DNA of 64,000 nt from an uncultured Alphaproteobacteria bacterium (GTDB lineage: Bacteria > Pseudomonadota > Alphaproteobacteria > CAAHEQ01 > UBA3637), in NCBI GenBank assembly GCA_944391565.1, contig CALXUB010000028.1, positions 30,738-94,737 on the forward strand. Direction: 5' to 3'. The translations under genes and the position numbers were made by a program. How positions within the stretch are numbered: position 1 is the first letter of the stretch; every line of letters begins with the position of its first letter. This document shows, piece by piece, positions 35,387-63,020 of this stretch. The notes under the pieces were generated by a model. That model saw only the letters and a program-made list of their open reading frames with translations, searched no databases and was not told where the DNA came from.

Positions 35387-36172
35387 TTAAAAAACAGTTT
35401 TTATTTGAACGCGGAGGGTGTGTCCGTCGCCGTGTGCATTGTTTTTCCCATTGTCTTGAAAAGTATAGGAATATCCGCCGCCGACAGCCAACCAATCCGT
35501 CACAAATGTATATAAGTCAGCAGTTGCATATAGCTTTTTAGATTTCCATAACTTGTCATAGTTATAGTGAAATGTTGCATCCACAGCGATCAGTTGATTA
35601 AGACTTTTATAAAGTCCTGCCATGATGTCGTATTTTGGGTTGTTATCAGCAAACTTATGTTGAAAAAGCGGTAATTCGGCGCTTGCTCCGATATAGGGCA
35701 GAACAAATTTCAGATCATATCCGGCTCTTGCATGTAAATTAAAGGCTTTGTAAGCGCCACCTGCATGGTGTGTTTCTTTTTGTAAATAAGCAAGGCGCGT
35801 TTGAACATAGGTTGTTTCTGTTTTATATAAGTCATAAGTAGCACCTAATTGCCAGTCGATGTTTGTATCTTCTCCATCCGTCACATTTGTTCCATCGTAC
35901 TTCAACCGATTCCAAGCATTGGAAATAACCGCGTCAATAGCAACCTTGGGTGCAACACCATAACTGAAAGCCTGAGCAGCAATGATGTCACGTGTTCGAT
36001 AGTTCTGATAACCGTTTATCATGTCTTTAACATGAAACTTTTCCCAAGCAAAGGTTGTTGTGGAGGTCAGTGTTTTTTCGGGAGACAGATAAAAGGGATG
36101 TGTTATTTCCAGAGCTTGGGCAGCAAACGGCAAGCAAACGGCAAGTAAGCTGAAGCAAAACAGTTTTTTCAT
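35387..36172 (-). CDS. Outer-membrane beta-barrel protein (OmpV/MipA-like)
   Basis: Signal peptide; alternating amphipathic strands; C-terminal Phe. Confidence 0.5.
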   Translation of the reverse strand: MKKLFCFSLLAVCLPFAAQALEITHPFYLSPEKTLTSTTTFAWEKFHVKDMINGYQNYRTRDIIAAQAFSYGVAPKVAIDAVISNAWNRLKYDGTNVTDGEDTNIDWQLGATYDLYKTETTYVQTRLAYLQKETHHAGGAYKAFNLHARAGYDLKFVLPYIGASAELPLFQHKFADNNPKYDIMAGLYKSLNQLIAVDATFHYNYDKLWKSKKLYATADLYTFVTDWLAVGGGYSYTFQDNGKNNAHGDGHTLRVQIKTVF

Positions 36173-36321: not shown

Positions 36322-36759
36322 ATGAACAAGGAAGTCAAAATCTATTCAGCAGAGCTTCATGCTTTTTGTGCTCTGCCTTTTGCGGATAAAGGAATTCGGG
36401 CCGGTTTTCCAAGCCCGGCGCAAGATTATATTGAAAAGAGTCTGGATTTAAATGAAGCTTTAATCAAACATCCGGCCAGTACTTTTTTCGGGCGTGTTGT
36501 CGGCGATAGTATGAAGGATTGCGGATTGGAGGAAGGAGACATTTTGGTTATTGATAAATCTTTGACGGTTTATGACGGGGCAATGGCTGTTTGTTTCATT
36601 GATGGAGAGTTTACGATTAAGTTTATTAAAAAGAAAGCGGGCGGTCTATGGCTAATGCCTGCTAATTCAGCTTATTTACCGATTCAGGTGACTTCTGAAA
36701 ATGATTTTATGGTTTGGGGTATTGTGACGTACTCTATCAAAAACAGGCATAAGAGGTAA
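36322..36759 (+). CDS. umuD: Error-prone repair protein UmuD (S24 LexA-like peptidase)
   Basis: GDSM Ser motif and downstream Lys; 145 aa; followed by umuC. Confidence 0.75.
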   Translation: MNKEVKIYSAELHAFCALPFADKGIRAGFPSPAQDYIEKSLDLNEALIKHPASTFFGRVVGDSMKDCGLEEGDILVIDKSLTVYDGAMAVCFIDGEFTIKFIKKKAGGLWLMPANSAYLPIQVTSENDFMVWGIVTYSIKNRHKR

Positions 36760-36761
36760 AG

Positions 36762-38018
36762 ATGTTCGGATTGCTGGATTGTAATAATTTTTATGTCAGT
36801 TGCGAGCGTGTTTTTAATCCTGCTTTATGTCAAAAGCCTGTTTTGGTGCTTAGTAATAATGACGGTTGTGTGATTGCCCGTTCGAATGAAGCAAAAGCGC
36901 TGGGTATTCAAATGGGAACCCCTGCTTATCAGTTGAAGAGGGTGATCGAAAGAGAAAAAATACATGTTTTTTCTTCTAATTATGCATTATACGCTGATAT
37001 GTCCGGTCGTGTGATGCAGCTTTTGGAAAGTTGTGTGCCGGCAATGGAAGTTTATTCAATAGACGAAGCTTTCTTGGATTTGACAGGCATAACACAACTT
37101 ACTTCCTTCGGTAGAAAAATAATTCAGATGGTGATGCGCGGAACAGGCATTCCTGTTTCGTTGGGGATAGCTTCTACGAAAACTTTGGCAAAAGTTGCCA
37201 ATAAATTTGCAAAGAAATATCAATCTTATCAGCATGTGTGTTTAATAGATACACAAGAAAAACGTGAAAAAGCTCTGCGATTAACGAATATCAGCGATGT
37301 GTGGGGAATTGGACATCGTCTGACGGAAAAACTGCATCAGGAAGGTGTGAAAACAGCCTATGATTTTACCTGTCTGCCGCGTGCGTGGGTCAGACAAAAT
37401 CTGCATCTGGGCGGATTATGTGTTTGGCAAGAGCTGCAAGGAGAAAAATGTCTTGACTTAGAACAAGAAGAAATGGAGAAAAAACAAATTTGCACTTCCC
37501 GTAGTTTTGGCGAAATGGTGACAGAATTGTCAGTGTTGAAAGAAGCCATTGCAACACATGCAGCCAGGTGTGCGGCTAAATTAAGAAAACAAAACGGCTG
37601 TGTTGTTTCGTTGGTCGTTTTTATCTCTACAAACGTTCATCGGACGGATTTACCTCAATACTGGAAAAGCCAACTTGTTTCCTTATTGGTTCCGTCAGAT
37701 GATACACGTGAAATTGTGACAGCGGCCTTGCATGGGTTGGAACAGATTTACAAACAAGGATATAATTATAAAAAAGCAGGTGTGATTTTGACGGAAATTG
37801 TCGCTAAGGTGCCTTTTCAGCAGGATTTATTTGATGAAAAGAATCATGAAAAGGCTTTTCGGTTAATGCAAGCCATAGATCAAATAAACGGTTTTTATCA
37901 TGAATGTAAAATTCGTTTGGCTGTCGAAGGAACCGGTCGTCGGTGGCGATTAAAACAGGAAAAACGTTCATTATGTTATACAACAAACTGGCGGGAGTTA
38001 ATTCGCATTCGAACATAA
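36762..38018 (+). CDS. umuC: DNA polymerase V subunit UmuC (Y-family)
   Basis: N-terminal LDCNNFYVSCE Y-family motif. Confidence 0.8.
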   Translation: MFGLLDCNNFYVSCERVFNPALCQKPVLVLSNNDGCVIARSNEAKALGIQMGTPAYQLKRVIEREKIHVFSSNYALYADMSGRVMQLLESCVPAMEVYSIDEAFLDLTGITQLTSFGRKIIQMVMRGTGIPVSLGIASTKTLAKVANKFAKKYQSYQHVCLIDTQEKREKALRLTNISDVWGIGHRLTEKLHQEGVKTAYDFTCLPRAWVRQNLHLGGLCVWQELQGEKCLDLEQEEMEKKQICTSRSFGEMVTELSVLKEAIATHAARCAAKLRKQNGCVVSLVVFISTNVHRTDLPQYWKSQLVSLLVPSDDTREIVTAALHGLEQIYKQGYNYKKAGVILTEIVAKVPFQQDLFDEKNHEKAFRLMQAIDQINGFYHECKIRLAVEGTGRRWRLKQEKRSLCYTTNWRELIRIRT

Positions 38019-38177: not shown

Positions 38178-38351
38178 GTGAAAGAGCGTTTATTAGCATA
38201 TTTGAAGGAAAATAAAAAGAAGGTCGTTGCATTTGTCGTTGCTGGTATAATCGCAGCATTGGGATTGACTGTCTCACAAGAGGCAGCTGATGGGATTGTC
38301 AGTGTTTTAGATAGTCTATCAACCGCGTTGTTTGAAACGGCAGTCGCATGA
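38178..38351 (+). CDS. Small single-TM protein (57 aa, GTG start)
   Basis: RBS AGGAGA before the GTG; stop overlaps the next ORF's start (ATGA). Confidence 0.35.
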   Translation: MKERLLAYLKENKKKVVAFVVAGIIAALGLTVSQEAADGIVSVLDSLSTALFETAVA

Positions 38352-38542
38352 CAAATCCGGTCGTTTGGCTCTTGAGTGCCCTTGCAGGGGCACTCTTTTT
38401 TTATAAGTGGGGTAAGAAAGCAGGGCAATATGACGAGCAGAAAAAGACGCAGGAAAAAGTTTTGGCTGCATTGGAGCAATCTTATCATTTTGATTCTTTG
38501 GATGATGTTGAGCTTGACAGGCTGCCATCAAAATATGACTGA
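38348..38542 (+). CDS. Small single-TM protein (64 aa)
   Basis: Translationally coupled to the preceding small ORF; N-terminal TM helix and charged C-terminus. Confidence 0.4.
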   Translation: MTNPVVWLLSALAGALFFYKWGKKAGQYDEQKKTQEKVLAALEQSYHFDSLDDVELDRLPSKYD

Positions 38543-38653
38543 TGCTCCGTTTTGTTTTATTTATCGGCCAGTCGCAGGAACAGGAGATATTCAACCTGAA
38601 CCACAGCGATTGGCAGTAAAAAGGAATAACTTAAAATATGAGGAGTTATGTGA

Positions 38654-39241
38654 ATGATGACGATTTTAATGATGATTTTTGAATCCTGGTGGCGGCGGTG
38701 GTTTGGCGGCGGCTTTATTGGCGGGGACAAGTGGGAAAATAAATGGTTTAATCGCCGGGGGACACAACATATTGTCAACTGTCTGATAATGGCCTTGTTT
38801 TTGGGCATATATTGTAAAATAAATATTTGGATAACAATATATTGTATCGCAGTGATTGAAGGCTTATTTTGGTCGCCGGGACATGGACCTGGCTTTGATA
38901 TGTCACGTGCCGGCGTGCCGGATGATACAAGCCGATATGAGGAAAAGTGGTGGAATAAAATTTGTCAATTCCTTGTTCCACGTGAACAATGGTATTCATT
39001 TGGATACGACTGGCTGTGGATGATGCTGCGCTATACAAGCCCTTGTGTTTTGCTCGTCCCCGTTTTTGGCTGGGAGATTTTGTTTATGGGCTTGTCGGTT
39101 GCACCTGTCTATGGCTTTTGTGCTTCGTTTTATGAAAAAGTGGATACGTCGCGTTGGCCGTCATGGTTAGACCGTGCCAACAAGTTAGCCGAAATTATTG
39201 TCGGCGGAATTGTGGGGTTGCTTTTGGGAGTGTTGGCATGA
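38654..39241 (+). CDS. Trp-rich polytopic membrane protein (195 aa), hypothetical
   Basis: Several hydrophobic segments; RBS AGGAG upstream. Confidence 0.45.
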   Translation: MMTILMMIFESWWRRWFGGGFIGGDKWENKWFNRRGTQHIVNCLIMALFLGIYCKINIWITIYCIAVIEGLFWSPGHGPGFDMSRAGVPDDTSRYEEKWWNKICQFLVPREQWYSFGYDWLWMMLRYTSPCVLLVPVFGWEILFMGLSVAPVYGFCASFYEKVDTSRWPSWLDRANKLAEIIVGGIVGLLLGVLA

Positions 39242-39408
39242 GGAAGTATGATAATGTGAAACCATTATTGAAAGATGAGGAACGACAAGCTGTCGAATGT
39301 TGGATGCGTGTGATGGGGTATTTTCGTCCTGTGTCTGGTTTTAATAAAGGTAAGCTCTCTGAATACAAAGAACGAAAATGGTTTCATGAAAGAAAAATTA
39401 AACTCTGA
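39238..39408 (+). CDS. 56-aa stand-alone NrdD-type glycyl-radical C-terminal domain-like protein
   Basis: RVMGYFRPVSGFNKGKLSEYKERK resembles the class III RNR C-terminus (RVCGYLG...FNAGKQEE..RR, as recalled for the E. coli NrdD C-terminus; approximate, from memory); ATGA overlap with the upstream ORF; GGAG RBS. Confidence 0.45.
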   Translation: MRKYDNVKPLLKDEERQAVECWMRVMGYFRPVSGFNKGKLSEYKERKWFHERKIKL

Positions 39409-39577: not shown

Positions 39578-40720
39578 ATGACAGCACAAAGACATTTGAA
39601 CTTTATTGATACAATAAACTTTGGAAGTTATTATACACCACCCGATCTTGTTGATATAGTATATAATATGGTTCAAAAAAATGAACCAAATTGGTATAAT
39701 TTTAGGATTATTGACACGTCGTGCGGGTATGGGAATTTTTTGCGTATTCCGCATTCAATTGGCGCGGATTATGATGAAAAAGCCATACAGGAAGCTTGTA
39801 AGCAAACTAAGAACTGTCATTTCTATTGCCACAATAGTTTAATGAATGTAAATAGAAGGCAGTATGGTTTATCGGATAATGATAAAATAATTATTGTGGG
39901 TAATCCCCCATATAATGATACAACATCTATTATACGTAATGATATTAAATCGGAAATATGCAAGATAGACGAGGATATAAAGCATAGGGATATGGGTGTA
40001 TCGTTTTTGCTCTCGTATGAAAAACTGAAAGCGGATTATATTTGTGTTTTGCATCCTTTATCATATCTTATAAAAAAAGCTAATTTTAACAGCCTCAATA
40101 AATTTAAGGATAATTACATTTTAATTGACTCTGTGATTGTAAGTAGCGGGGCGTTTCATGATACTTCTAAAACAACTCATTTCCCGATTATCATTGCACT
40201 CTACAAAAGAAGCAGCAGGGGAATGGACTATCCTTTTATCCAGAATTATACATTTAAGACAAAGGATAACAAAGCGTTTAAGATCGGTGATTTTGATAAA
40301 CTTTGCAATTATATTACCAAATATCCTAACCATAAATATTTATCATTGAAGGATTCTGTCGCTTTTTTTTGGACAATGCGGGATATCAATGCCTTAAAAA
40401 GGACGAAAACTTTTATAGAACGGGAAGTTTATAATTCTATCAGAATTCCAAAAGAAAAATTATCATTATATTGTTATGCGGATGTGTTTAAAGAATATAT
40501 TTCTTATGTACCGTATTATTTTGGTAATAGCGATATAATGATAGATTTAGATTCTTTTAAACGTATAGAGAAGTCTTTCTTACGTAAAAGTCTTTCTAAG
40601 TATTCTTTTTTAAGGGGCCTGCTGCAGGGAGAAGATGTATCAGAGAATGATCTTTATAATATAAATACTTACTTTCACGATTTGCTGGGAGAACATTATG
40701 TGGATAAAGGAATTGGATGA
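39578..40720 (+). CDS. N6-adenine DNA methyltransferase, gamma class (Eco57I/TaqI-like), apparently orphan
   Basis: Motif I IIDTSCGYGNFL and motif IV IIVGNPPYN. Confidence 0.7.
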   Translation: MTAQRHLNFIDTINFGSYYTPPDLVDIVYNMVQKNEPNWYNFRIIDTSCGYGNFLRIPHSIGADYDEKAIQEACKQTKNCHFYCHNSLMNVNRRQYGLSDNDKIIIVGNPPYNDTTSIIRNDIKSEICKIDEDIKHRDMGVSFLLSYEKLKADYICVLHPLSYLIKKANFNSLNKFKDNYILIDSVIVSSGAFHDTSKTTHFPIIIALYKRSSRGMDYPFIQNYTFKTKDNKAFKIGDFDKLCNYITKYPNHKYLSLKDSVAFFWTMRDINALKRTKTFIEREVYNSIRIPKEKLSLYCYADVFKEYISYVPYYFGNSDIMIDLDSFKRIEKSFLRKSLSKYSFLRGLLQGEDVSENDLYNINTYFHDLLGEHYVDKGIG

Positions 40721-41207
40721 ACAAAATAAAAAAATAATTGTTGAAATTCCTTTAACAAAAGGAACAGATAAGACAAGAATCAAAAAAAGAAGTTGTTTTA
40801 ATGAGTACGGAATCCCTGTCTCAACGAAATCCGAAAGTTTTTCTCAAGCCTGCTATGTTGAGTGGCAAATTGGATATGATGTTGTGACCTCCGATAAAGA
40901 AAAGTTAGAACGAACAACAATGAAAGATTTTGTGTTTAACGGAGCAAATGGAAAAGAAAAAACAATTTACGAGTTGTCAGAGTACATTTTTTATTTTTAT
41001 AAATGGAATGTTATTTCTAAGAATAAATTACTTGAAATAAAATCTTTTTTGGAGGCTTGTTCTGAAAATGATTTTGTCGACAATCCTCGTAATTTTGCCA
41101 TAGAACGGAGTCATCCGGTAAAAAAACAGGTTTTGGGAATAAATTTCTTTTATACGCAAGTAAAAACCCAATGCTTGTTCATAGATTCGAGCAGTATGAA
41201 ATTTTAA
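40698..41207 (+). CDS. Hypothetical protein overlapping the methyltransferase 3' end; possible restriction endonuclease fragment
   Basis: ORF overlaps by 23 nt; no motif recognised. Confidence 0.3.
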   Translation: MWIKELDEQNKKIIVEIPLTKGTDKTRIKKRSCFNEYGIPVSTKSESFSQACYVEWQIGYDVVTSDKEKLERTTMKDFVFNGANGKEKTIYELSEYIFYFYKWNVISKNKLLEIKSFLEACSENDFVDNPRNFAIERSHPVKKQVLGINFFYTQVKTQCLFIDSSSMKF

Positions 41208-41647: not shown

Positions 41648-41726
41648 TGGTCGGAGTGGCGGGATTTGAACCCACGACCCCTACGTCCCGAACGTAGTGC
41701 TCTACCAGACTGAGCCACACTCCGAC
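41648..41726 (-). tRNA. tRNA-Pro (anticodon CGG)
   Basis: Cloverleaf read from the reverse complement: GTCGGAGTGTGGCTCAGTCTGGTAGAGCACTACGTTCGGGACGTAG...CCA. Confidence 0.8.
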
Positions 41727-58066: not shown

Positions 58067-58137
58067 ACAATTATATTGCAATATTATCTAAACTCTGTCA
58101 ATATATTTTTTATTCTAATATGAAAAAAGAGGTCACT

Positions 58138-61100
58138 ATGAGCTATACGTTAGGATTGGACTTAGGAAATACATCTATCGGATGGGTACTTTTAAAAACA
58201 AACGATGCGGAAATAACGGGAATTGAAGCCATGGGCGTCCGTATTTTCCCGGATGGTCGTGAAGCTCAGTCTAAAGAGCCTTTAGCTGTCGCACGCAGGA
58301 TGGCCCGTTCGATGCGCCGTTCTTTGGACAGACGTCTGCTGCGTCAGGAAAAACTGATGCGCTTTTTGATTGAGAACGGCCTTTACCCTGCAAATGAAGC
58401 AGATAGTAAGAAATTGGTTCAATTAAATCCCTATGCCTGTCGTGATAAAGCTTCCCGTGAAGAAGTTAATCCTTTTGAAGTGGGGCGAGCATTATACCAT
58501 ATTTGTCTTCGTCGCGGTTTTCTCAGCAACAGAAAAACAGACAAAAAAGACAAAGAAAGCGGCAGCATGAAAACAGCCATTCATGTATTGGAAGAAAAAA
58601 TAGCTCAATCAGGAGCGCAAACGCTGGGGCAATATCTGTATTTGCTTCAGCTTCAGGATGATCATGCGCAGCTGCGTGTCAGTGCGCAGACGGCGGGAAC
58701 AAAAAACGTATACAATTTCTATCCCTCTCGAGCCATGTATGAGCGGGAGGTTGATCAAATTTTAATGCATCAATCATATTTGTCGGCGGCCCAGAAAAAT
58801 GAAATAAAAGAAATTATTTTCTATCAACGGCCCTTGAAAAAGCCTCAAGTTGGCTTTTGCACTTTAGAAGAAAAAGAACGTCGGGCGCCCAAATCCAGTA
58901 TTTTGTTTCAATATTTCAGGTTGTTGCAAAAACTGAATGATTTAGAATATGTTTTCTTGGATACAGGGGAATGTTTAACAGATGAAAACCGTCAAGTTAT
59001 TAAAGAAATGCTGTTGAAATCAAAAGAAGTTTCTTTTGAAACGATTCGTAAAAAATTAGGCGTTTCGTATCGTTTTTCGCATGAAGACGAAAAAACATCC
59101 AAACTGACGGGACATGAAATCAATGCGAAAATGAGTTCTAAAAAGGCTTTCGGATCTGCTTGGTTTGAACTGTCCGGACGGGAACAAGAACACCTTGTCA
59201 TGCTTTTGTCCAATCTGGAGAAAGAAGATGTTCTTGAAAAATATTTAAAACAGACTTATCCGGATTTAAGCGATGAGCAAGTCGAATATCTGCTAGGACT
59301 TTCTTTTCCAGAAGGATATGGCCATTTAAGTCGACGAGCAATGTTAAAAATAATTCCGTTTATGGAAAAAGGCTTATCTTATTATGATGCTTGTGAAGCG
59401 GCCGGTTATCACGAAACGGAACAGCCGCACGGAGAGCTGTTGCCTTATTATGGGGAGATTTTGTATAAAAAATTATTGGGCGGAAGTTTTAATCCATCCG
59501 ATCAAAATACACCGGAGCTTTATTATGGAAAAATTAATAATCCGACAGTTCATATCGGTCTGAACCAACTTCGTTTGCTTGTCAATGAACTAATAGCCCA
59601 ATATGGGAAGCCGACACAAATTGTGGTAGAACTGGCGCGTGAATTAAAGATGTCTCAAAAAGACTTGAATGAACTGAATCGAAGACAAACGGCCGATAGA
59701 AAGGAAAACGAGAAAATCAATCTTTTTCTGAAAGAACAAGGATTGCCTGAAAGCTATGAAAATCGAATGCGGTATAAATTGTGGACGGATTTGGCTGAAA
59801 ATCCCTTGGAGCGCTGTTGTCCTTTCTGCGGTCGCACAATCGGTGAAGGGGATATTTTCTCGCCGGCTTTTGAAACAGAACATTTACTGCCATTTTCTCG
59901 TTCATTTAATGACGGACGGAATAATAAGGTTTTAGCTTGTAAGGAATGCAATAACTTTAAGAAAAACCAAACACCTTGGGAGGCATTTCATACTCATGTG
60001 GGAGATAAATATGATTGGGAAAATATCTTGGCCCGCGTTTCAAAAATGAATAACAGAAAAGCATGGCATTTTACGAAAGAAGCTGCCGAAAGTTTGGATG
60101 AAAACACGGTCTTAAATCGTTTTTTGAATGATACAAAGTATTTGTCCAAAATGGCAAAAGCTTATTTGGAATATATTTGTCCGGTTCGAACAATTCCGGG
60201 ACAATTAACCTCTAAAATGCGCAAGATTTGGCAATTTAATGACTTGATCGGCGAAACGGATGAAAAAGATCGCACGGAGCATCGACATCATGCGATTGAT
60301 GCCTTAACGGTGGCATGCACGACACGCAGTACACTACAGGCTTTTTCAACACATTCAAAAGAAAGCTATGAACGACAGCATAAAATTTTGGCCGGCAGTT
60401 TAGTTCCTTTTAAGGCTTTTAATCGGGCAGAAATGAAACAACTTTTGGAAAATATGGTGATTTCCTATAAACCTAATCATAAAGATGCTCAAAAAGCTGT
60501 TTCCCAAGGCAAAACGGCAGGGGCTTTGCATGATGAAACAAACTACGGAAAAGTGATGCATTTAAACGATGACGGTTCTGTTGAAAGCCGCTATGTGGTT
60601 CGAAAGCCGCTAATCAGTTTAATTGAAGATAAAAATATTGAAGAAATCGGTGATCGAAAAATCCGTCATGAACTGCAGACATTGCTTGCCGGCAAAAGTA
60701 AAGAGGAACGTAAAAAATTATTGGAGGCCTACAGCGAGGAAAAGAATATCAGAACGGTTCGCGTCCATATCATTAAAAAAGATGATGCTATGATCGGCAT
60801 TTGTCGGAAGGGACAGGAAAAACCCTATCGTTATGTCGCCAGCGGTAATAATTATTGTATGGATATTTATTGTCCGAATCGAGGGAAAAATAAAGGGGTT
60901 TGGTGTGGAGAAGTCATCTCTAATTATGAGGCTCATCAAAAAGGTTTCCAGCCTCAGTGGCGGCAAAAAGAGCCGGAGGCAAAACTGATTATGCGTCTGT
61001 TTATCGACGATATGGTCGCATATGAGGAAAACGGACAAACGGAAATCCGACGCGTGAAAAAAATGGATAAAAGTGTTAAAGTTTATCTGCGTTCTCATTT

Positions 61101-61227
61101 GATAGCAGCAGAAGAAGCAGATAAATTATCTTGGGCAGCTTCTCCGCGACAGCTTCAGTTAAAAAATGCCCGGAAAATAAAAGTTGATGTTTTGGGACGG
61201 GTTTTTGACCCGAAAAGTTCCAAATGA
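58138..61227 (+). CDS. cas9: Cas9, type II-C, about 1029 aa (ORF track begins at 58120; the ATG at 58138 has an AAGAGG RBS)
   Basis: RuvC-I LGLDLGNTSIGW; Arg-rich bridge helix RRMARSMRRSLDRRLLRQ; HNH ETEHLLPFSRSFNDGRNNKVLACKECNNFKKNQTP; RuvC-III HHAIDAL. Confidence 0.92.
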   Translation: MSYTLGLDLGNTSIGWVLLKTNDAEITGIEAMGVRIFPDGREAQSKEPLAVARRMARSMRRSLDRRLLRQEKLMRFLIENGLYPANEADSKKLVQLNPYACRDKASREEVNPFEVGRALYHICLRRGFLSNRKTDKKDKESGSMKTAIHVLEEKIAQSGAQTLGQYLYLLQLQDDHAQLRVSAQTAGTKNVYNFYPSRAMYEREVDQILMHQSYLSAAQKNEIKEIIFYQRPLKKPQVGFCTLEEKERRAPKSSILFQYFRLLQKLNDLEYVFLDTGECLTDENRQVIKEMLLKSKEVSFETIRKKLGVSYRFSHEDEKTSKLTGHEINAKMSSKKAFGSAWFELSGREQEHLVMLLSNLEKEDVLEKYLKQTYPDLSDEQVEYLLGLSFPEGYGHLSRRAMLKIIPFMEKGLSYYDACEAAGYHETEQPHGELLPYYGEILYKKLLGGSFNPSDQNTPELYYGKINNPTVHIGLNQLRLLVNELIAQYGKPTQIVVELARELKMSQKDLNELNRRQTADRKENEKINLFLKEQGLPESYENRMRYKLWTDLAENPLERCCPFCGRTIGEGDIFSPAFETEHLLPFSRSFNDGRNNKVLACKECNNFKKNQTPWEAFHTHVGDKYDWENILARVSKMNNRKAWHFTKEAAESLDENTVLNRFLNDTKYLSKMAKAYLEYICPVRTIPGQLTSKMRKIWQFNDLIGETDEKDRTEHRHHAIDALTVACTTRSTLQAFSTHSKESYERQHKILAGSLVPFKAFNRAEMKQLLENMVISYKPNHKDAQKAVSQGKTAGALHDETNYGKVMHLNDDGSVESRYVVRKPLISLIEDKNIEEIGDRKIRHELQTLLAGKSKEERKKLLEAYSEEKNIRTVRVHIIKKDDAMIGICRKGQEKPYRYVASGNNYCMDIYCPNRGKNKGVWCGEVISNYEAHQKGFQPQWRQKEPEAKLIMRLFIDDMVAYEENGQTEIRRVKKMDKSVKVYLRSHLIAAEEADKLSWAASPRQLQLKNARKIKVDVLGRVFDPKSSK

Positions 61228-62150
61228 CCGGACAGATTTTGGAAATAGCAACAGATAATAAGCATTTGTCCGCCAAAGACGGATTTATCGTCATTTCGGA
61301 AGGACAGGTCGAGTTGGGCCGTATTCCGATTGACGCCGTTGAAGCCGTAGTTGTTTCTGCGCATGGCATCACTTACAGTCATTCTTTTTTGGTGCGCTTG
61401 TCAGAGAATAACATTCCGTTTGTGGCTTGCAATCAAAAGCACTTTCCCGTTTCTTATCTGCTTCCTTTAGAGGGACATTATAAGCAAGGCTCTGTGATGG
61501 ATGCTCAGCTTCAAGCAAATCTACCGCTTAATAAAAGGTTGTGGCGAGACTTAGTGAAAGCAAAAATTGCTATGCAAATCAGCGTTTTAACACATTATCA
61601 GAAGCCTGTGCAACGTTTAGAGTATTTATTGAAATCCGTCAAATCGGATGATAGTGAAAATGCAGAAGGTCAGGCAGCCCGTTTTTACTTTCAAGCATTG
61701 TTCGGAGACAATTTTATACGCGATCGTGAGGCGGATGGTATCAATGCCATGCTCAATTACGGATATACGGTTCTGAGGGCCTTTATCGCGCGTTATTCGA
61801 CGGCTGCCGGTTTGCATCCGACAATGGGGATTCATCATCGGAACGCTTTGAACGGATTTCGCTTAGCCGACGATTTGATGGAACCTTTTCGGCCGATTGT
61901 TGACTTTGCTGTTTATGAGATGATAACAAAGGGAGAAACGGCACTGACTTCAACCGTGAAGCAAAGCTTGGTTAATGTATTTTCAGGAAATATACCCGCT
62001 TTTTTGGGACAAACTCAAATAACAATCTGTATGCAGAATCTGTGTATTTCTTTGGCTAAAGTATATTTAAAAGAACGGGAGGAACTTGATTTGCCATATT
62101 CACCGCAACCATGGGATTGGGAGGCTTTAAATGCCTTCATCGCCGTATAA
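61224..62150 (+). CDS. cas1: Cas1
   Basis: 308 aa; overlaps the cas9 stop (ATGA); position. Confidence 0.85.
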   Translation: MTGQILEIATDNKHLSAKDGFIVISEGQVELGRIPIDAVEAVVVSAHGITYSHSFLVRLSENNIPFVACNQKHFPVSYLLPLEGHYKQGSVMDAQLQANLPLNKRLWRDLVKAKIAMQISVLTHYQKPVQRLEYLLKSVKSDDSENAEGQAARFYFQALFGDNFIRDREADGINAMLNYGYTVLRAFIARYSTAAGLHPTMGIHHRNALNGFRLADDLMEPFRPIVDFAVYEMITKGETALTSTVKQSLVNVFSGNIPAFLGQTQITICMQNLCISLAKVYLKEREELDLPYSPQPWDWEALNAFIAV

Positions 62151-62460
62151 TCAAATGTGGATGATGGTTATGTTTGATTTGCCGGTCGGAACGGCAAAAG
62201 AGCGTAAAAAAGCCACGGCTTTTCGAAAGGGACTCTTGGATCTTGGCTTCGAAATGTCACAATTTTCAGTTTATGTACGTTTTTGCGGCGACAGGCAGAA
62301 AACAGAACCTTATGTTCGAAAAATTAAGACGTTAATTCCGGAAAATGGGAGCGTCACGTTATTATTTTTTACGGATCGACAATTCTCCGATATTATTAAC
62401 TTTTCGAATCGAAAACGTAAAAAATTAAAGGAAAATCCGGCTCAGTTATCTCTGTTCTAG
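62131..62460 (+). CDS. cas2: Cas2
   Basis: 109 aa; overlaps cas1; MWMMVMFDLP start typical of Cas2. Confidence 0.85.
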   Translation: MPSSPYNQMWMMVMFDLPVGTAKERKKATAFRKGLLDLGFEMSQFSVYVRFCGDRQKTEPYVRKIKTLIPENGSVTLLFFTDRQFSDIINFSNRKRKKLKENPAQLSLF

Positions 62461-62468
62461 AGAGCTTT

Positions 62469-62497
62469 TGGGAGGATATTTTCTTATATCCTCCTTT
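62469..62497 (+). terminator. Rho-independent terminator after cas2 (GGGAGGATAT-TTTCTT-ATATCCTCC-TTTT)
   Basis: Read directly. Confidence 0.65.
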
Positions 62498-62521
62498 TAA
62501 AACAACGACTTAACTCAGTGA

Positions 62522-63020
62522 GATTATAGCAGATTAAAGAGTATGGTCAAGCCGTAACAATTCGTTGTCTACATAATTTTTTACTTCTATTATAGCAGAT
62601 TAAAGAGTATGGTCAAGCCGTAACACTATAATTTCAAAGTATTGGGATTTTGCTATTATAGCAGATTAAAGAGTATGGTCAAGCCGTAACTTATCAATGT
62701 GTTTATTTACATCAACATTAATTATAGCAGATTAAAGAGTATGGTCAAGCCGTAACTTGTTTATCCCTGTTGTTATATAGCTTTTTATTATAGCAGATTA
62801 AAGAGTATGGTCAAGCCGTAACATCACCTAAAATAATATTGAAAGCTTTTTTATTATAGCAGATTAAAGAGTATGGTCAAGCCGTAACTTTTCAAAACCG
62901 TCAAATTCAAGCCGAGAAATTATAGCAGATTAAAGAGTATGGTCAAGCCGCAACGCAACACGCGAGATCATTGACATCGTACAGATTATAGCAGATGAAG
63001 GAATATCTTGTTGACGAAAG
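62522..63020 (-). CRISPR. CRISPR array: 36-bp repeat (+ strand ATTATAGCAGATTAAAGAGTATGGTCAAGCCGTAAC), 7 spacers of 30-31 bp, repeat 7 variant (GCCGCAAC), degenerate 8th repeat at 62985. The crRNA-sense repeat is the reverse complement and ends in an extended -10 TGCTATAAT.
   Basis: Repeat starts 62522, 62589, 62655, 62721, 62787, 62853, 62919, 62985 counted directly. Confidence 0.95.

What the first reader, a model, noticed from the sequence alone, without database searches (positions are those of the whole stretch)
38654..39408. Stand-alone 56-aa NrdD-type glycyl-radical domain, translationally coupled to a Trp-rich membrane protein
RVMGYFRPVSGFNKGKLSEYKERK reproduces the glycyl-radical loop and the following FNxGKxxE..R block of class III ribonucleotide reductase C-termini, but without the Zn-ribbon cysteines and without the 600-aa catalytic body. 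It has a GGAG RBS and an ATGA overlap with the upstream ORF, so it looks expressed rather than a random remnant. It could be a spare-part radical domain for an oxygen-damaged NrdD, analogous to GrcA/YfiD for PFL, which to my knowledge has not been described for class III RNR. Alternatively it is a phage-derived fragment.
Basis: partly seen in the sequence, partly recalled or inferred. Interest (0 to 1): 0.6.

Follow-up and report, generated by a model that had tools for sequence, protein, structure and literature searches.

The report
Orphan glycyl-radical tail of split RNR
The 56-residue gene is a real, conserved, free-standing copy of the radical-carrying tail of the anaerobic ribonucleotide reductase, which many bacteria naturally encode as a separate small protein, and this copy sits alone in a phage-derived stretch of DNA.

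Summary
Window 39238-39408 (+) encodes a 56-aa protein that matches only the last ~30 positions of Pfam NRDD, above the curated cut-off. It has a GGGAG ribosome-binding site and an ATGA overlap with a 195-aa membrane ORF. It is not a pseudogene: the 64 kb window holds no NrdD body and no nrdG.

In relatives, nrdD is naturally split into three genes: a ~686-aa body ending after the Zn ribbon, a ~60-aa ORF with its own Shine-Dalgarno site carrying RVMGY, and nrdG. I found 39 such loci among the 80 best genome hits, and also in Cupriavidus necator H16, Ralstonia solanacearum and Paracoccus.

Another 37 loci are orphan copies like this one. They lie at conserved chromosomal sites or at the lysis/integrase end of temperate phages. 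Six MAGs carry both an operon and an orphan. Orphans are as constrained as operon copies.

Best reading: an extra, phage-derived copy of the detachable radical subunit of a split class III RNR. This resembles GrcA in function, but it is not a GrcA homologue. The biochemistry is inferred, and whether this genome has an nrdD body is unknown. The literature I could search describes neither a split class III RNR nor a spare part for it.

The parts
39238..39408 (+). Orphan 56-aa NrdD glycyl-radical-domain gene ('mini-NrdD'). The RVMGY motif is at 39307-39321 and the putative radical glycine G27 at 39316-39318. An alternative GTG start lies at 39256.
   Evidence: ORF and sequence. Pfam NRDD 31.3 bits, above the gathering score. 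Short homologues P0001-P0012. 83% identical to the small ORF of the split nrdD operon in L014.
39226..39230 (+). GGGAG Shine-Dalgarno-like site 7 nt upstream of the ATG. ATGA stop/start overlap at 39238-39241.
   Evidence: Read directly from the sequence.
38654..39241 (+). 195-aa Trp-rich, multi-helix membrane protein ('p195'). It belongs to an uncharacterised phage membrane-protein family.
   Evidence: No Pfam, NCBIfam, PHROG or PADLOC hit. AF2 model all-helical, pLDDT 64.5. Foldseek BFVD hit to an uncharacterised Myoviridae protein, E 4e-7. Homologues lie upstream of mini genes in L050, L012, L100, L107, L109 and L126, next to endolysins.
38610..38637 (+). Promoter-like site (TTGGCA-16-TAAAAT) just upstream of p195. 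It is a possible promoter of a p195/mini bicistron.
   Evidence: Consensus scan only; the number of sites in the region equals the shuffle expectation.
38178..38542 (+). Two small hydrophobic ORFs of 57 aa and 64 aa. They are possible leftovers of a phage lysis cassette. A strong terminator-like hairpin at 38374-38395 lies inside the second ORF.
   Evidence: Weak PHROG holin and spanin-like hits (E 0.01-0.09, not significant). Hairpin. Both ORFs are conserved in L001 and L002.
39578..41207 (+). Type II restriction-modification pair directly downstream. The MTase is intact. The REase is truncated (169 aa here against 253 aa in L001/L002).
   Evidence: PADLOC MTase_II 3.6e-89 and REase_II 4.6e-9. 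RE_R_Pab1 in L001/L002. Length comparison.
41648..41724 (-). tRNA-Pro(CGG). It is the possible former integration site bounding the accessory segment.
   Evidence: ARAGORN. No flanking att-like direct repeat was found, so the boundary is an inference.
36322..38018 (+). umuD-umuC pair. It lies between the conserved outer-membrane-protein gene (35387-36172, minus strand) and the phage-like segment, and is part of the accessory block.
   Evidence: Peptidase_S24 and IMS families in L001/L002. Homologues of the 261-aa OMP sit directly next to orphan mini genes in 8 other MAG loci.

Best explanation
The 56-aa protein is an extra ('orphan') copy of the detachable glycyl-radical subunit of a split class III ribonucleotide reductase.

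In the lineage this window resembles, and in several cultured Proteobacteria and Acidobacteria, nrdD is encoded as two cistrons. The first is a ~686-aa catalytic body that ends just after the Zn ribbon. The second is a ~60-aa polypeptide carrying ERQxxExWTRVMGYFRP..FNxGKxSE.

Inferred mechanism: the activase NrdG puts the radical on the glycine of the small polypeptide, which docks its Gly hairpin into the barrel of the body. Because the radical-bearing, oxygen-cleavable part is a separate 6-7 kDa protein, it can be replaced without remaking the body. Orphan copies add to that supply. They occur at conserved chromosomal loci and at the lysis/integrase end of temperate phages, the position where phages commonly carry accessory ('moron') genes.

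The window copy is of the phage type. It follows a phage membrane protein, lies in an accessory block next to tRNA-Pro, and its closest relatives are a phage copy (L013) and operon copies (L014, L018, L019).

Shown: homology, family size, the split architecture, orphan contexts, co-occurrence in MAGs, and purifying selection. Inferred: activation by NrdG, docking, exchange after oxygen damage, and that this genome has an nrdD body at all.
For: 1. Domain identity.

2. Split architecture. Of the 80 best genome loci, 39 have an NrdD body, a stop codon, a spacer that is 10-66 nt in most loci (range -4 to 197 nt) with an AGGAG-type site, an ATG small ORF and then nrdG. All three stop codons and all three frame offsets occur, so this is not recoding. 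Four loci are fused.

3. The same split is annotated in cultured bacteria:
- C. necator H16 pHG1: 676-aa body, a 66-aa ORF named 'nrdD', then nrdG.
- R. solanacearum: 58-aa 'hypothetical protein'.
- Paracoccus ferrooxidans: 60-aa 'hypothetical protein'.
- C. metallidurans CH34, where I read the small ORF directly from the DNA.
A genome paper reports that the pHG1 nrdDG locus is needed for anaerobic growth on nitrate.

4. Orphans. 37 of the 80 loci have no body within 8 kb upstream where the sequence allows a check. Six MAGs carry both a split operon and an orphan.

5. Selection. pN/pS is 0.10-0.24 in orphans and 0.25 in operon copies, with synonymous sites saturated. Per-column entropy correlates at r=0.96, and 18 of 19 near-invariant columns are shared.

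6. Regulation. NrdR-box-like palindromes lie about 100 nt upstream of 11 operon bodies. They also lie upstream of orphans L031 (a tandem pair 30 nt apart), L061, L067 and L069.

7. Phage origin. 54 of the 80 best viral loci carry short mini ORFs. 45 of these have no body or nrdG within 6 kb. They are typically flanked by endolysins of four PHROG families and by an integrase.

8. The AF2 model of the mini places G27 at the tip of a beta-hairpin, at low confidence.
Against: - Neither an nrdD body nor nrdG lies in the 64 kb window. The rest of the genome could not be reached, so the partner is unproven for this organism.
- No biochemical evidence exists for trans-activation or docking.
- The window allele has M where the family has a near-invariant T (CWMRVMGY). 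T. maritima NrdD also has M there, and the allele occurs on 7-9 contigs.
- The neighbourhood looks partly decayed: the REase is truncated, and there is no endolysin or integrase. The copy could therefore be dispensable.
- The Cys position (VECW versus CEVW) of rnhA-type orphans differs from that of the operon copy in three MAGs.
- AF2 confidence for the isolated peptide is poor (pLDDT 52).
Confidence: 0.6

Rival explanations
1. A strict GrcA/YfiD analogue. The host has an ordinary fused NrdD, and the small protein is used only after oxygen has cleaved the enzyme's own C-terminus, replacing the lost radical loop.
For: The protein is a stand-alone radical domain with every motif residue kept. 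Phage T4 carries the PFL spare part Y06I, as cited in the review read. Some orphan carriers show no split operon among the loci retrieved. The fused NrdDs of L034 and L077 have a nearly identical tail.
Against: The nearest relatives of the window copy are small ORFs of split operons. All six MAGs in which both loci were seen have the split form. No case of an orphan together with a fused NrdD in one genome was found, although the sampling could not test this properly.
Confidence: 0.15
2. A decaying passenger. The gene arrived with a prophage, the prophage has eroded, and in this genome the small ORF no longer does anything.
For: The REase next door is truncated. No endolysin, integrase or att repeat is present. 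The window allele carries a T-to-M change at a near-invariant position.
Against: The ORF is intact and has an RBS. The same or a nearly identical protein occurs on dozens of contigs (28 for P0001, 7-9 for the window allele). The variants P0002-P0005 keep the whole core while their tails diverge. M at that position is natural in T. maritima NrdD.
Confidence: 0.12
3. A phage-encoded decoy. The peptide soaks up NrdG or occupies the NrdD body unproductively, modulating host anaerobic dNTP synthesis or acting in phage-host conflict.
For: Frequent position in temperate-phage accessory regions. The gene sits next to an RM system here.
Against: The conservation pattern is the same as in operon copies, including the glycine and its flanks. 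Orphans also sit at housekeeping loci (upstream of rnhA-infC), and some have NrdR-like boxes. There is no PADLOC hit.
Confidence: 0.08
4. A functional pair with the 195-aa membrane protein, for example a lysis-timing or membrane-linked role unrelated to nucleotide reduction.
For: ATGA coupling here and in L050. p195 homologues occur near mini genes in six other loci, always in lysis regions.
Against: Most mini genes, about 90% of the loci examined, have no p195 homologue nearby. In some phages an endolysin separates the two, and the p195 relative P0019 has no mini next to it. The mini has no membrane segment.
Confidence: 0.05

Closest known systems
GrcA/YfiD of E. coli and Y06I of phage T4 (autonomous glycyl radical cofactors for pyruvate formate-lyase)
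   Same: A small stand-alone protein that is essentially the C-terminal glycyl-radical domain of a large glycyl radical enzyme. It is encoded away from that enzyme, and phage-borne versions exist. The proposed use in trans is also the same.
   Different: Different homology group: NRDD tail, not PF01228. It is half the size (56 aa against 127 aa). In related genomes the parent enzyme itself lacks the radical domain, so trans-action would be constitutive and not only a repair. No biochemistry exists.
C-terminal glycyl-radical domain of fused class III RNR (NrdD; T4 1H7A, T. maritima 4COI/4U3E)
   Same: The sequence is 62-68% identical to the last 41-45 residues of fused NrdDs from Chthoniobacteraceae and Ozemobacteraceae. 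The RVxGY loop and the FNxGK block are present.
   Different: It has no catalytic barrel, no ATP cone and no Zn ribbon. It is a separate gene with its own RBS.
Small ORF of split nrdD operons (e.g. C. necator H16 H16_RS32675/WP_011154154.1, T. bradus WP_420238858.1, 'hypothetical protein' in R. solanacearum and Paracoccus)
   Same: The same family, length and invariant residues. The window protein is 83% identical to the operon copy in L014.
   Different: The window copy is not next to an nrdD body or nrdG. Those ORFs carry automatic names only; I found no paper describing them.
Split class II RNR NrdJa/NrdJb (Pseudomonas aeruginosa)
   Same: It is a precedent for an RNR catalytic chain encoded as two polypeptides, with the C-terminal Zn-finger part on the second chain.
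   Different: A different RNR class and a different split point. NrdJb carries no radical site, and no orphan or phage copies are known.

Membership tests
Class III RNR NrdD (Pfam PF13597 / TIGR02487) | Significant profile match | tested here: met
   PF13597 scores 31.3 bits against a gathering score of 26.2, E 1.1e-7, but only for profile positions 531-561 of 562. NCBIfam equivalog cut-offs (326-585 bits) are far from met, at 17-24 bits.
Class III RNR NrdD (Pfam PF13597 / TIGR02487) | Glycyl-radical loop RVxGY followed by the FNxGK..E..R block | tested here: met
   RVMGYFRPVSGFNKGKLSEYKERK at residues 24-47. It aligns to T. maritima NrdD residues 613-645.
Class III RNR NrdD (Pfam PF13597 / TIGR02487) | Ten-stranded catalytic barrel with the thiyl-radical cysteine loop | tested here: not met
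   The protein is 56 aa. No NrdD body similarity exists anywhere in the 64 kb window.
Class III RNR NrdD (Pfam PF13597 / TIGR02487) | Zn ribbon (CxxH/C ... CxxC) before the Gly loop | tested here: not met
   Absent from the mini. In split operons it stays on the body (SICPKHGY...FCPxCD).
Class III RNR NrdD (Pfam PF13597 / TIGR02487) | Adjacent activase gene nrdG | tested here: not met
   No nrdG in the window. nrdG follows the mini in most of the split-operon loci.
Detached radical subunit of split nrdD operons (uncharacterised family defined here) | Homology to the ~60-aa ORF encoded between the nrdD body and nrdG | tested here: met
   125 bits against the family HMM. 83% identity to L014. 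The invariant columns are shared.
Detached radical subunit of split nrdD operons (uncharacterised family defined here) | A partner nrdD body lacking its own Gly loop in the same genome | not testable with these tools
   Only 64 kb of the genome is available. Attempts to extend the contig failed or added nothing relevant. The feature is met in six related MAGs.
GrcA/YfiD autonomous glycyl radical cofactor | Homology to the PFL C-terminal domain (Pfam Gly_radical PF01228) | tested here: not met
   No PF01228 hit at E<=1.
GrcA/YfiD autonomous glycyl radical cofactor | Stand-alone radical domain encoded apart from the parent enzyme | tested here: met
   Orphan context in the window and in 37 genome loci.
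GrcA/YfiD autonomous glycyl radical cofactor | Activated by the parent enzyme's activase and restores activity to the oxygen-cleaved enzyme | not testable with these tools
   Requires anaerobic biochemistry.
Temperate-phage accessory (moron) gene | Position at the lysis/integrase end of the phage genome | tested here: inconclusive
   True for many viral homologues: endolysin PHROGs 7, 894, 465 and 938, and integrase PHROG 1. In the window, only the phage membrane protein p195 and two small hydrophobic ORFs remain; there is no endolysin, integrase or att repeat.

The most novel reading that the evidence does not exclude
Class III ribonucleotide reductase exists in a widespread two-polypeptide form in which the glycyl radical sits on a separate ~60-residue protein. 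Bacteria and their temperate phages carry extra copies of that protein as replaceable radical cartridges. This would be the first spare-part system for a glycyl radical enzyme other than PFL, and the smallest known phage auxiliary metabolic gene for dNTP synthesis.
Probability: 0.45. Interest if true: 0.8.

Novelty: new variant of a known kind. Interest (0 to 1): 0.68.

Why it matters
Glycyl radical enzymes are destroyed by oxygen through cleavage at the radical glycine. Only PFL is known to have a spare part (GrcA), and a 2026 review lists as open whether other glycyl radical enzymes do.

A class III RNR whose radical domain is natively a separate small protein, with extra chromosomal and phage-borne copies, would make that question directly testable. 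Culturable, genetically tractable bacteria already carry the split operon: C. necator H16, Paracoccus and R. solanacearum.

It would also change how nrdD is annotated. Bodies lacking the Gly loop are currently called complete, and the small ORFs are called hypothetical or are missed. Finally, it would add a new, very small class of phage metabolic gene in gut and rumen Alphaproteobacteria.

Tried and rejected
- **Pseudogene remnant:** rejected. tblastn with two full-length NrdDs finds nothing but the 45-residue tail in the window.
- **Recoding (selenocysteine, readthrough or frameshift) at split junctions:** rejected. TAA, TAG and TGA all occur, all three frame offsets occur, and gaps reach 197 nt with their own SD and ATG.
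- **AF2 of the mini alone:** pLDDT 52. It served only for the hairpin remark, and I ran no fold search on it.
- **PDB sequence search with the family profile:** nothing at E<=0.01, and only T. maritima NrdD at about 0.01.
- **Cultured phages (INPHARED, tblastn):** only four full-length NrdD hits and no mini.
- **PADLOC:** no hit for the mini or p195.
- **afdb50 fold library:** unavailable.
- **att-like direct repeats around tRNA-Pro:** none found.
- **Extending the contig beyond the window to look for nrdD:** three look-ups were not on record. One returned other strains' contigs with no nrd genes.
- **Organism name from exact protein look-ups:** none given.
- **Linking host and phages through three CRISPR spacers:** no exact matches in viral contigs or in the fetched loci.
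- **Siedow et al. 1999 (A. eutrophus nrdDG):** not held, so I could not check whether the split was noticed then.
- **VECW/CEVW cysteine position as a co-evolution test between orphan and body:** mixed result, probably phylogenetic.

Full report
**1. What is in the window**

The finding spans two overlapping ORFs on the + strand. ORF 38654-39241 encodes a 195-aa Trp-rich protein. ORF 39238-39408 encodes MRKYDNVKPLLKDEERQAVECWMRVMGYFRPVSGFNKGKLSEYKERKWFHERKIKL. GGGAG at 39226-39230 lies 7 nt before the ATG, and the ATG overlaps the upstream TGA to give ATGA. An in-frame GTG at 39256, preceded by GAGGA, is a possible alternative start.

The 56-mer hits Pfam NRDD at E 1.1e-7 and 31.3 bits, above the gathering score of 26.2. 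Only residues 16-48 match, against profile positions 531-561 of 562. Five NCBIfam NrdD models also match with their last ~30 positions only. The family profile aligns to T. maritima NrdD (4COI/4U3E) at 613-645, 'VDEYMRIVGYLVPVSAFNK'.

**2. It is not a decayed nrdD**

tblastn with two full-length NrdDs and an NrdG against the whole window finds only 39265-39399. That stretch is 62-68% identical to the last 41-45 residues of the NrdDs. No other hit scores better than E 0.4. The rest of the window is ordinary chromosome: YidC, Lon, ClpXP, trigger factor, an RND pump and a Cas9 system.

**3. The family**

A word-indexed search found 12 clusters, all 56-77 aa and all carrying the NRDD tail. An exhaustive HMM search of 1.84 billion 50%-identity representatives gave 4250 hits at E<=1e-3 and 884 at E<=1e-10. 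Every one of the best 150 is 54-153 aa long. The invariant residues are L-K-D-x-E-R-Q..E.W.RVMGYFRP..FN.GK.SE...R..F.

**4. The key turn: nrdD is naturally split in relatives**

A scan of one genome per species returned at least 581 relatives. The best 80 (L014-L093) are mostly gut and rumen Alphaproteobacteria MAGs. Others come from Acidobacteria (including the complete genome of Telmatobacter bradus DSM 23630), Sumerlaeota, Francisellaceae and Holosporales.

Four loci are ordinary fused NrdDs of 730-803 aa. Their tail reads ...HCPTCD-linker-LKDENRQICEVWTRVMGYFRPVSQFNAGKKSEY, so the mini equals the part after the Zn ribbon.

In 39 loci the arrangement is as follows:
- A ~686-aa NrdD body ends just after the Zn ribbon (SICPKHGY...FCPxCDxE...).
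- A stop codon follows.
- A spacer follows, 10-66 nt in most loci (range -4 to 197 nt), carrying an AAGGAG-type site.
- An ATG opens a ~62-aa ORF.
- A ~230-aa radical-SAM protein with CPWRCPFCYN follows. tblastn with it hits the gene next to fused phage NrdDs at about 40% identity, so I read it as NrdG.

TAA, TAG and TGA all occur at the junction, and so do all three frame relations. This excludes selenocysteine, readthrough or a single programmed frameshift.

The same three-gene layout is annotated in cultured bacteria:
- C. necator H16 pHG1: a 676-aa 'ribonucleoside triphosphate reductase', a 66-aa 'nrdD' and the activase.
- R. solanacearum: a 58-aa 'hypothetical protein'.
- Paracoccus ferrooxidans: a 60-aa 'hypothetical protein'.
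- C. metallidurans CH34, where I read it directly from the DNA.

In all, 163 plasmid or megaplasmid records match the tail, fused nrdD genes included. NCBI names the T. bradus 58-mer 'anaerobic ribonucleoside-triphosphate reductase'. The CH34 genome paper cites work showing that the pHG1 nrdDG locus is needed for anaerobic growth on nitrate. The split enzyme therefore works in vivo.

**5. Orphan copies**

37 of the 80 genome loci have the mini without a body upstream. A few are too close to a contig end to judge. The contexts recur:
- mini, RNase HI, an unrelated gene, then infC: 9-12 loci.
- An outer-membrane-protein gene on the minus strand, then the mini, then a transglutaminase-like gene: 8 loci. 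The window's 261-aa ORF at 35387-36172 is a 31-34% homologue of that OMP.
- A prophage-like block that occurs twice on one contig.
- A position after a ~2000-aa protein.

Six MAGs carry both a split operon and an orphan.

Orphans are under the same constraint as operon copies. pN/pS is 0.10-0.24 for orphans and 0.25 for operon copies, with synonymous sites saturated. Per-column entropy correlates at r=0.96, and 18 of 19 near-invariant columns are shared.

NrdR-box-like palindromes (ACACAATATATAGTAT) sit about 100 nt upstream of 11 operon bodies. They also sit upstream of orphans L031 (two boxes 30 nt apart, best score 19.9), L061, L067 and L069. That is 4 of 40 orphans, against about 0.7 expected.

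**6. Phage connection**

In IMG/VR, 94 stretches encode relatives. Among the best 80:
- 54 have short mini ORFs.
- 45 of those have no NrdD body or nrdG within 6 kb.
- 9 have split bodies, most of them interrupted by inserts.
- 26 are fused ~600-aa NrdDs (some cut by a contig end), each followed by nrdG.

The stand-alone phage copies sit beside endolysins of four PHROG families (7, 894, 465, 938), small hydrophobic ORFs and often a divergent integrase (PHROG 1). This is the typical accessory-gene position of temperate phages.

The window's 195-aa partner belongs to an uncharacterised phage membrane family:
- Homologues at 24-34% identity lie upstream of mini genes in L050 (also overlapping the mini), L012, L100, L107, L109 and L126.
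- Its AF2 model (pLDDT 64.5) matches an uncharacterised Myoviridae protein at E 4e-7.

Most mini genes have no such neighbour, and a 49%-identical relative (P0019) has no mini next to it. I therefore read the ATGA coupling as inherited phage synteny and not as evidence of a functional pair.

**7. The window copy specifically**

Its core is closest to a phage copy (L013) and to operon copies of the 'VECW' subtype (L014 at 83%, then L018 and L019). It is not closest to the OMP-type orphans, despite the shared OMP neighbour.

It lies in an accessory block: umuDC, two small hydrophobic ORFs, p195, the mini, a type II MTase, a truncated REase and tRNA-Pro. No integrase, endolysin or att repeat remains. 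The most economical reading is an eroded prophage end that kept its accessory gene.

The exact protein occurs on 7-9 contigs, and a T23 variant on 28. The window allele's M23 replaces a near-invariant T, but T. maritima NrdD has M at that position.

**8. Mechanism**

Shown: the small protein is the NrdD radical loop; in related genomes it is the only radical loop available to the body; extra copies are conserved.

Inferred: NrdG activates the glycine on the small chain. The Gly hairpin docks into the body; AF2 puts G27 at a hairpin tip, though at low confidence. After oxygen cleavage only the small chain needs replacing, and orphan or phage copies add supply.

This works like GrcA for PFL, but the protein is not a GrcA family member. 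I put 0.6 on this explanation. The main gap is that I could not see whether this genome has an nrdD body and nrdG.

**9. Novelty**

- A 2026 review of glycyl radical enzymes says that spare parts are known only for formate lyases, and that it is undetermined whether they exist elsewhere.
- RNR family surveys describe split class II (NrdJa/NrdJb) and describe the class III radical domain as the C-terminus of NrdD. None mentions a split class III.
- Further searches found nothing.
- Subscription papers, notably Siedow et al. 1999 on A. eutrophus nrdDG, could not be read. From memory, that paper gives NrdD as 76.2 kDa, which equals the body alone.

The small ORFs are present in databases under automatic names, so the sequences are not new. 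The architecture and the orphan and phage copies appear undescribed. I rate this a new variant of a known kind.

Noticed in passing
window 58120-63020: A type II CRISPR-Cas locus: Cas9 (1035 aa), Cas1 and Cas2, followed by an array of about 8 repeats of 36 nt (ATTATAGCAGATTAAAGAGTATGGTCAAGCCGTAAC) with 30-nt spacers. Three spacers had no exact match in viral contigs.
   Followed up: partly
window 40698-41207: The type II restriction endonuclease (RE_R_Pab1-like) next to an intact methyltransferase is cut short: 169 aa here against 253 aa in near-identical contigs L001 and L002. The MTase may therefore be orphaned in this strain.
   Followed up: partly
window 38374-38395: A strong terminator-like hairpin (9 bp, 6 GC, then a T run) lies inside the 64-aa ORF 38348-38542. 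Either that ORF is not real or the hairpin is coding sequence.
   Followed up: no
window 38762 and 38832: Two NrdR-box-like palindromes (ACACAACATATTGTCA and TAACAATATATTGTAT) lie inside the p195 ORF, about 400-480 nt upstream of the mini gene. Only one other site in the 64 kb reaches the same score. The significance is borderline and the 70-nt spacing is atypical.
   Followed up: partly
L113-L116, L124, L142, L145, L147 (viral contigs of 17-108 kb): Split NrdD bodies of 673-1360 aa. All but L116 are interrupted by one or more inserts that look like inteins (...SRWG|CVLPST...VFLSGQ|TQTPFTNLTF). Each is followed by the mini ORF and, further downstream, by genes with a CxxxCxxC motif.
   Followed up: no
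L175-L178 (C. metallidurans CH34, Paracoccus ferrooxidans, R. solanacearum, C. necator H16 pHG1): Well-studied denitrifiers encode nrdD as a body plus a 58-66-aa ORF plus nrdG. The small ORF is annotated 'hypothetical protein' or 'nrdD', or is not listed at all. Current annotation treats a body without a radical glycine as the complete enzyme.
   Followed up: partly
window 35387-36172 (-) and L029, L031, L035, L038, L040, L045, L057, L061: A 261-aa outer-membrane-type protein with no Pfam family is the immediate divergent neighbour of orphan mini genes in eight MAGs. It also lies 3 kb from the window's mini, although that mini is of a different subtype. The reason for this recurring adjacency is unexplained.
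   Followed up: partly
mini family alignment (L014-L093): The single conserved cysteine sits at one of two positions two residues apart (PCEVW or PVECW; PCECW in L037, L050 and L079). In operon loci this tracks a body motif (TPTFS versus TPV[FY]S). It could be a contact between the chains or just clade history.
   Followed up: partly
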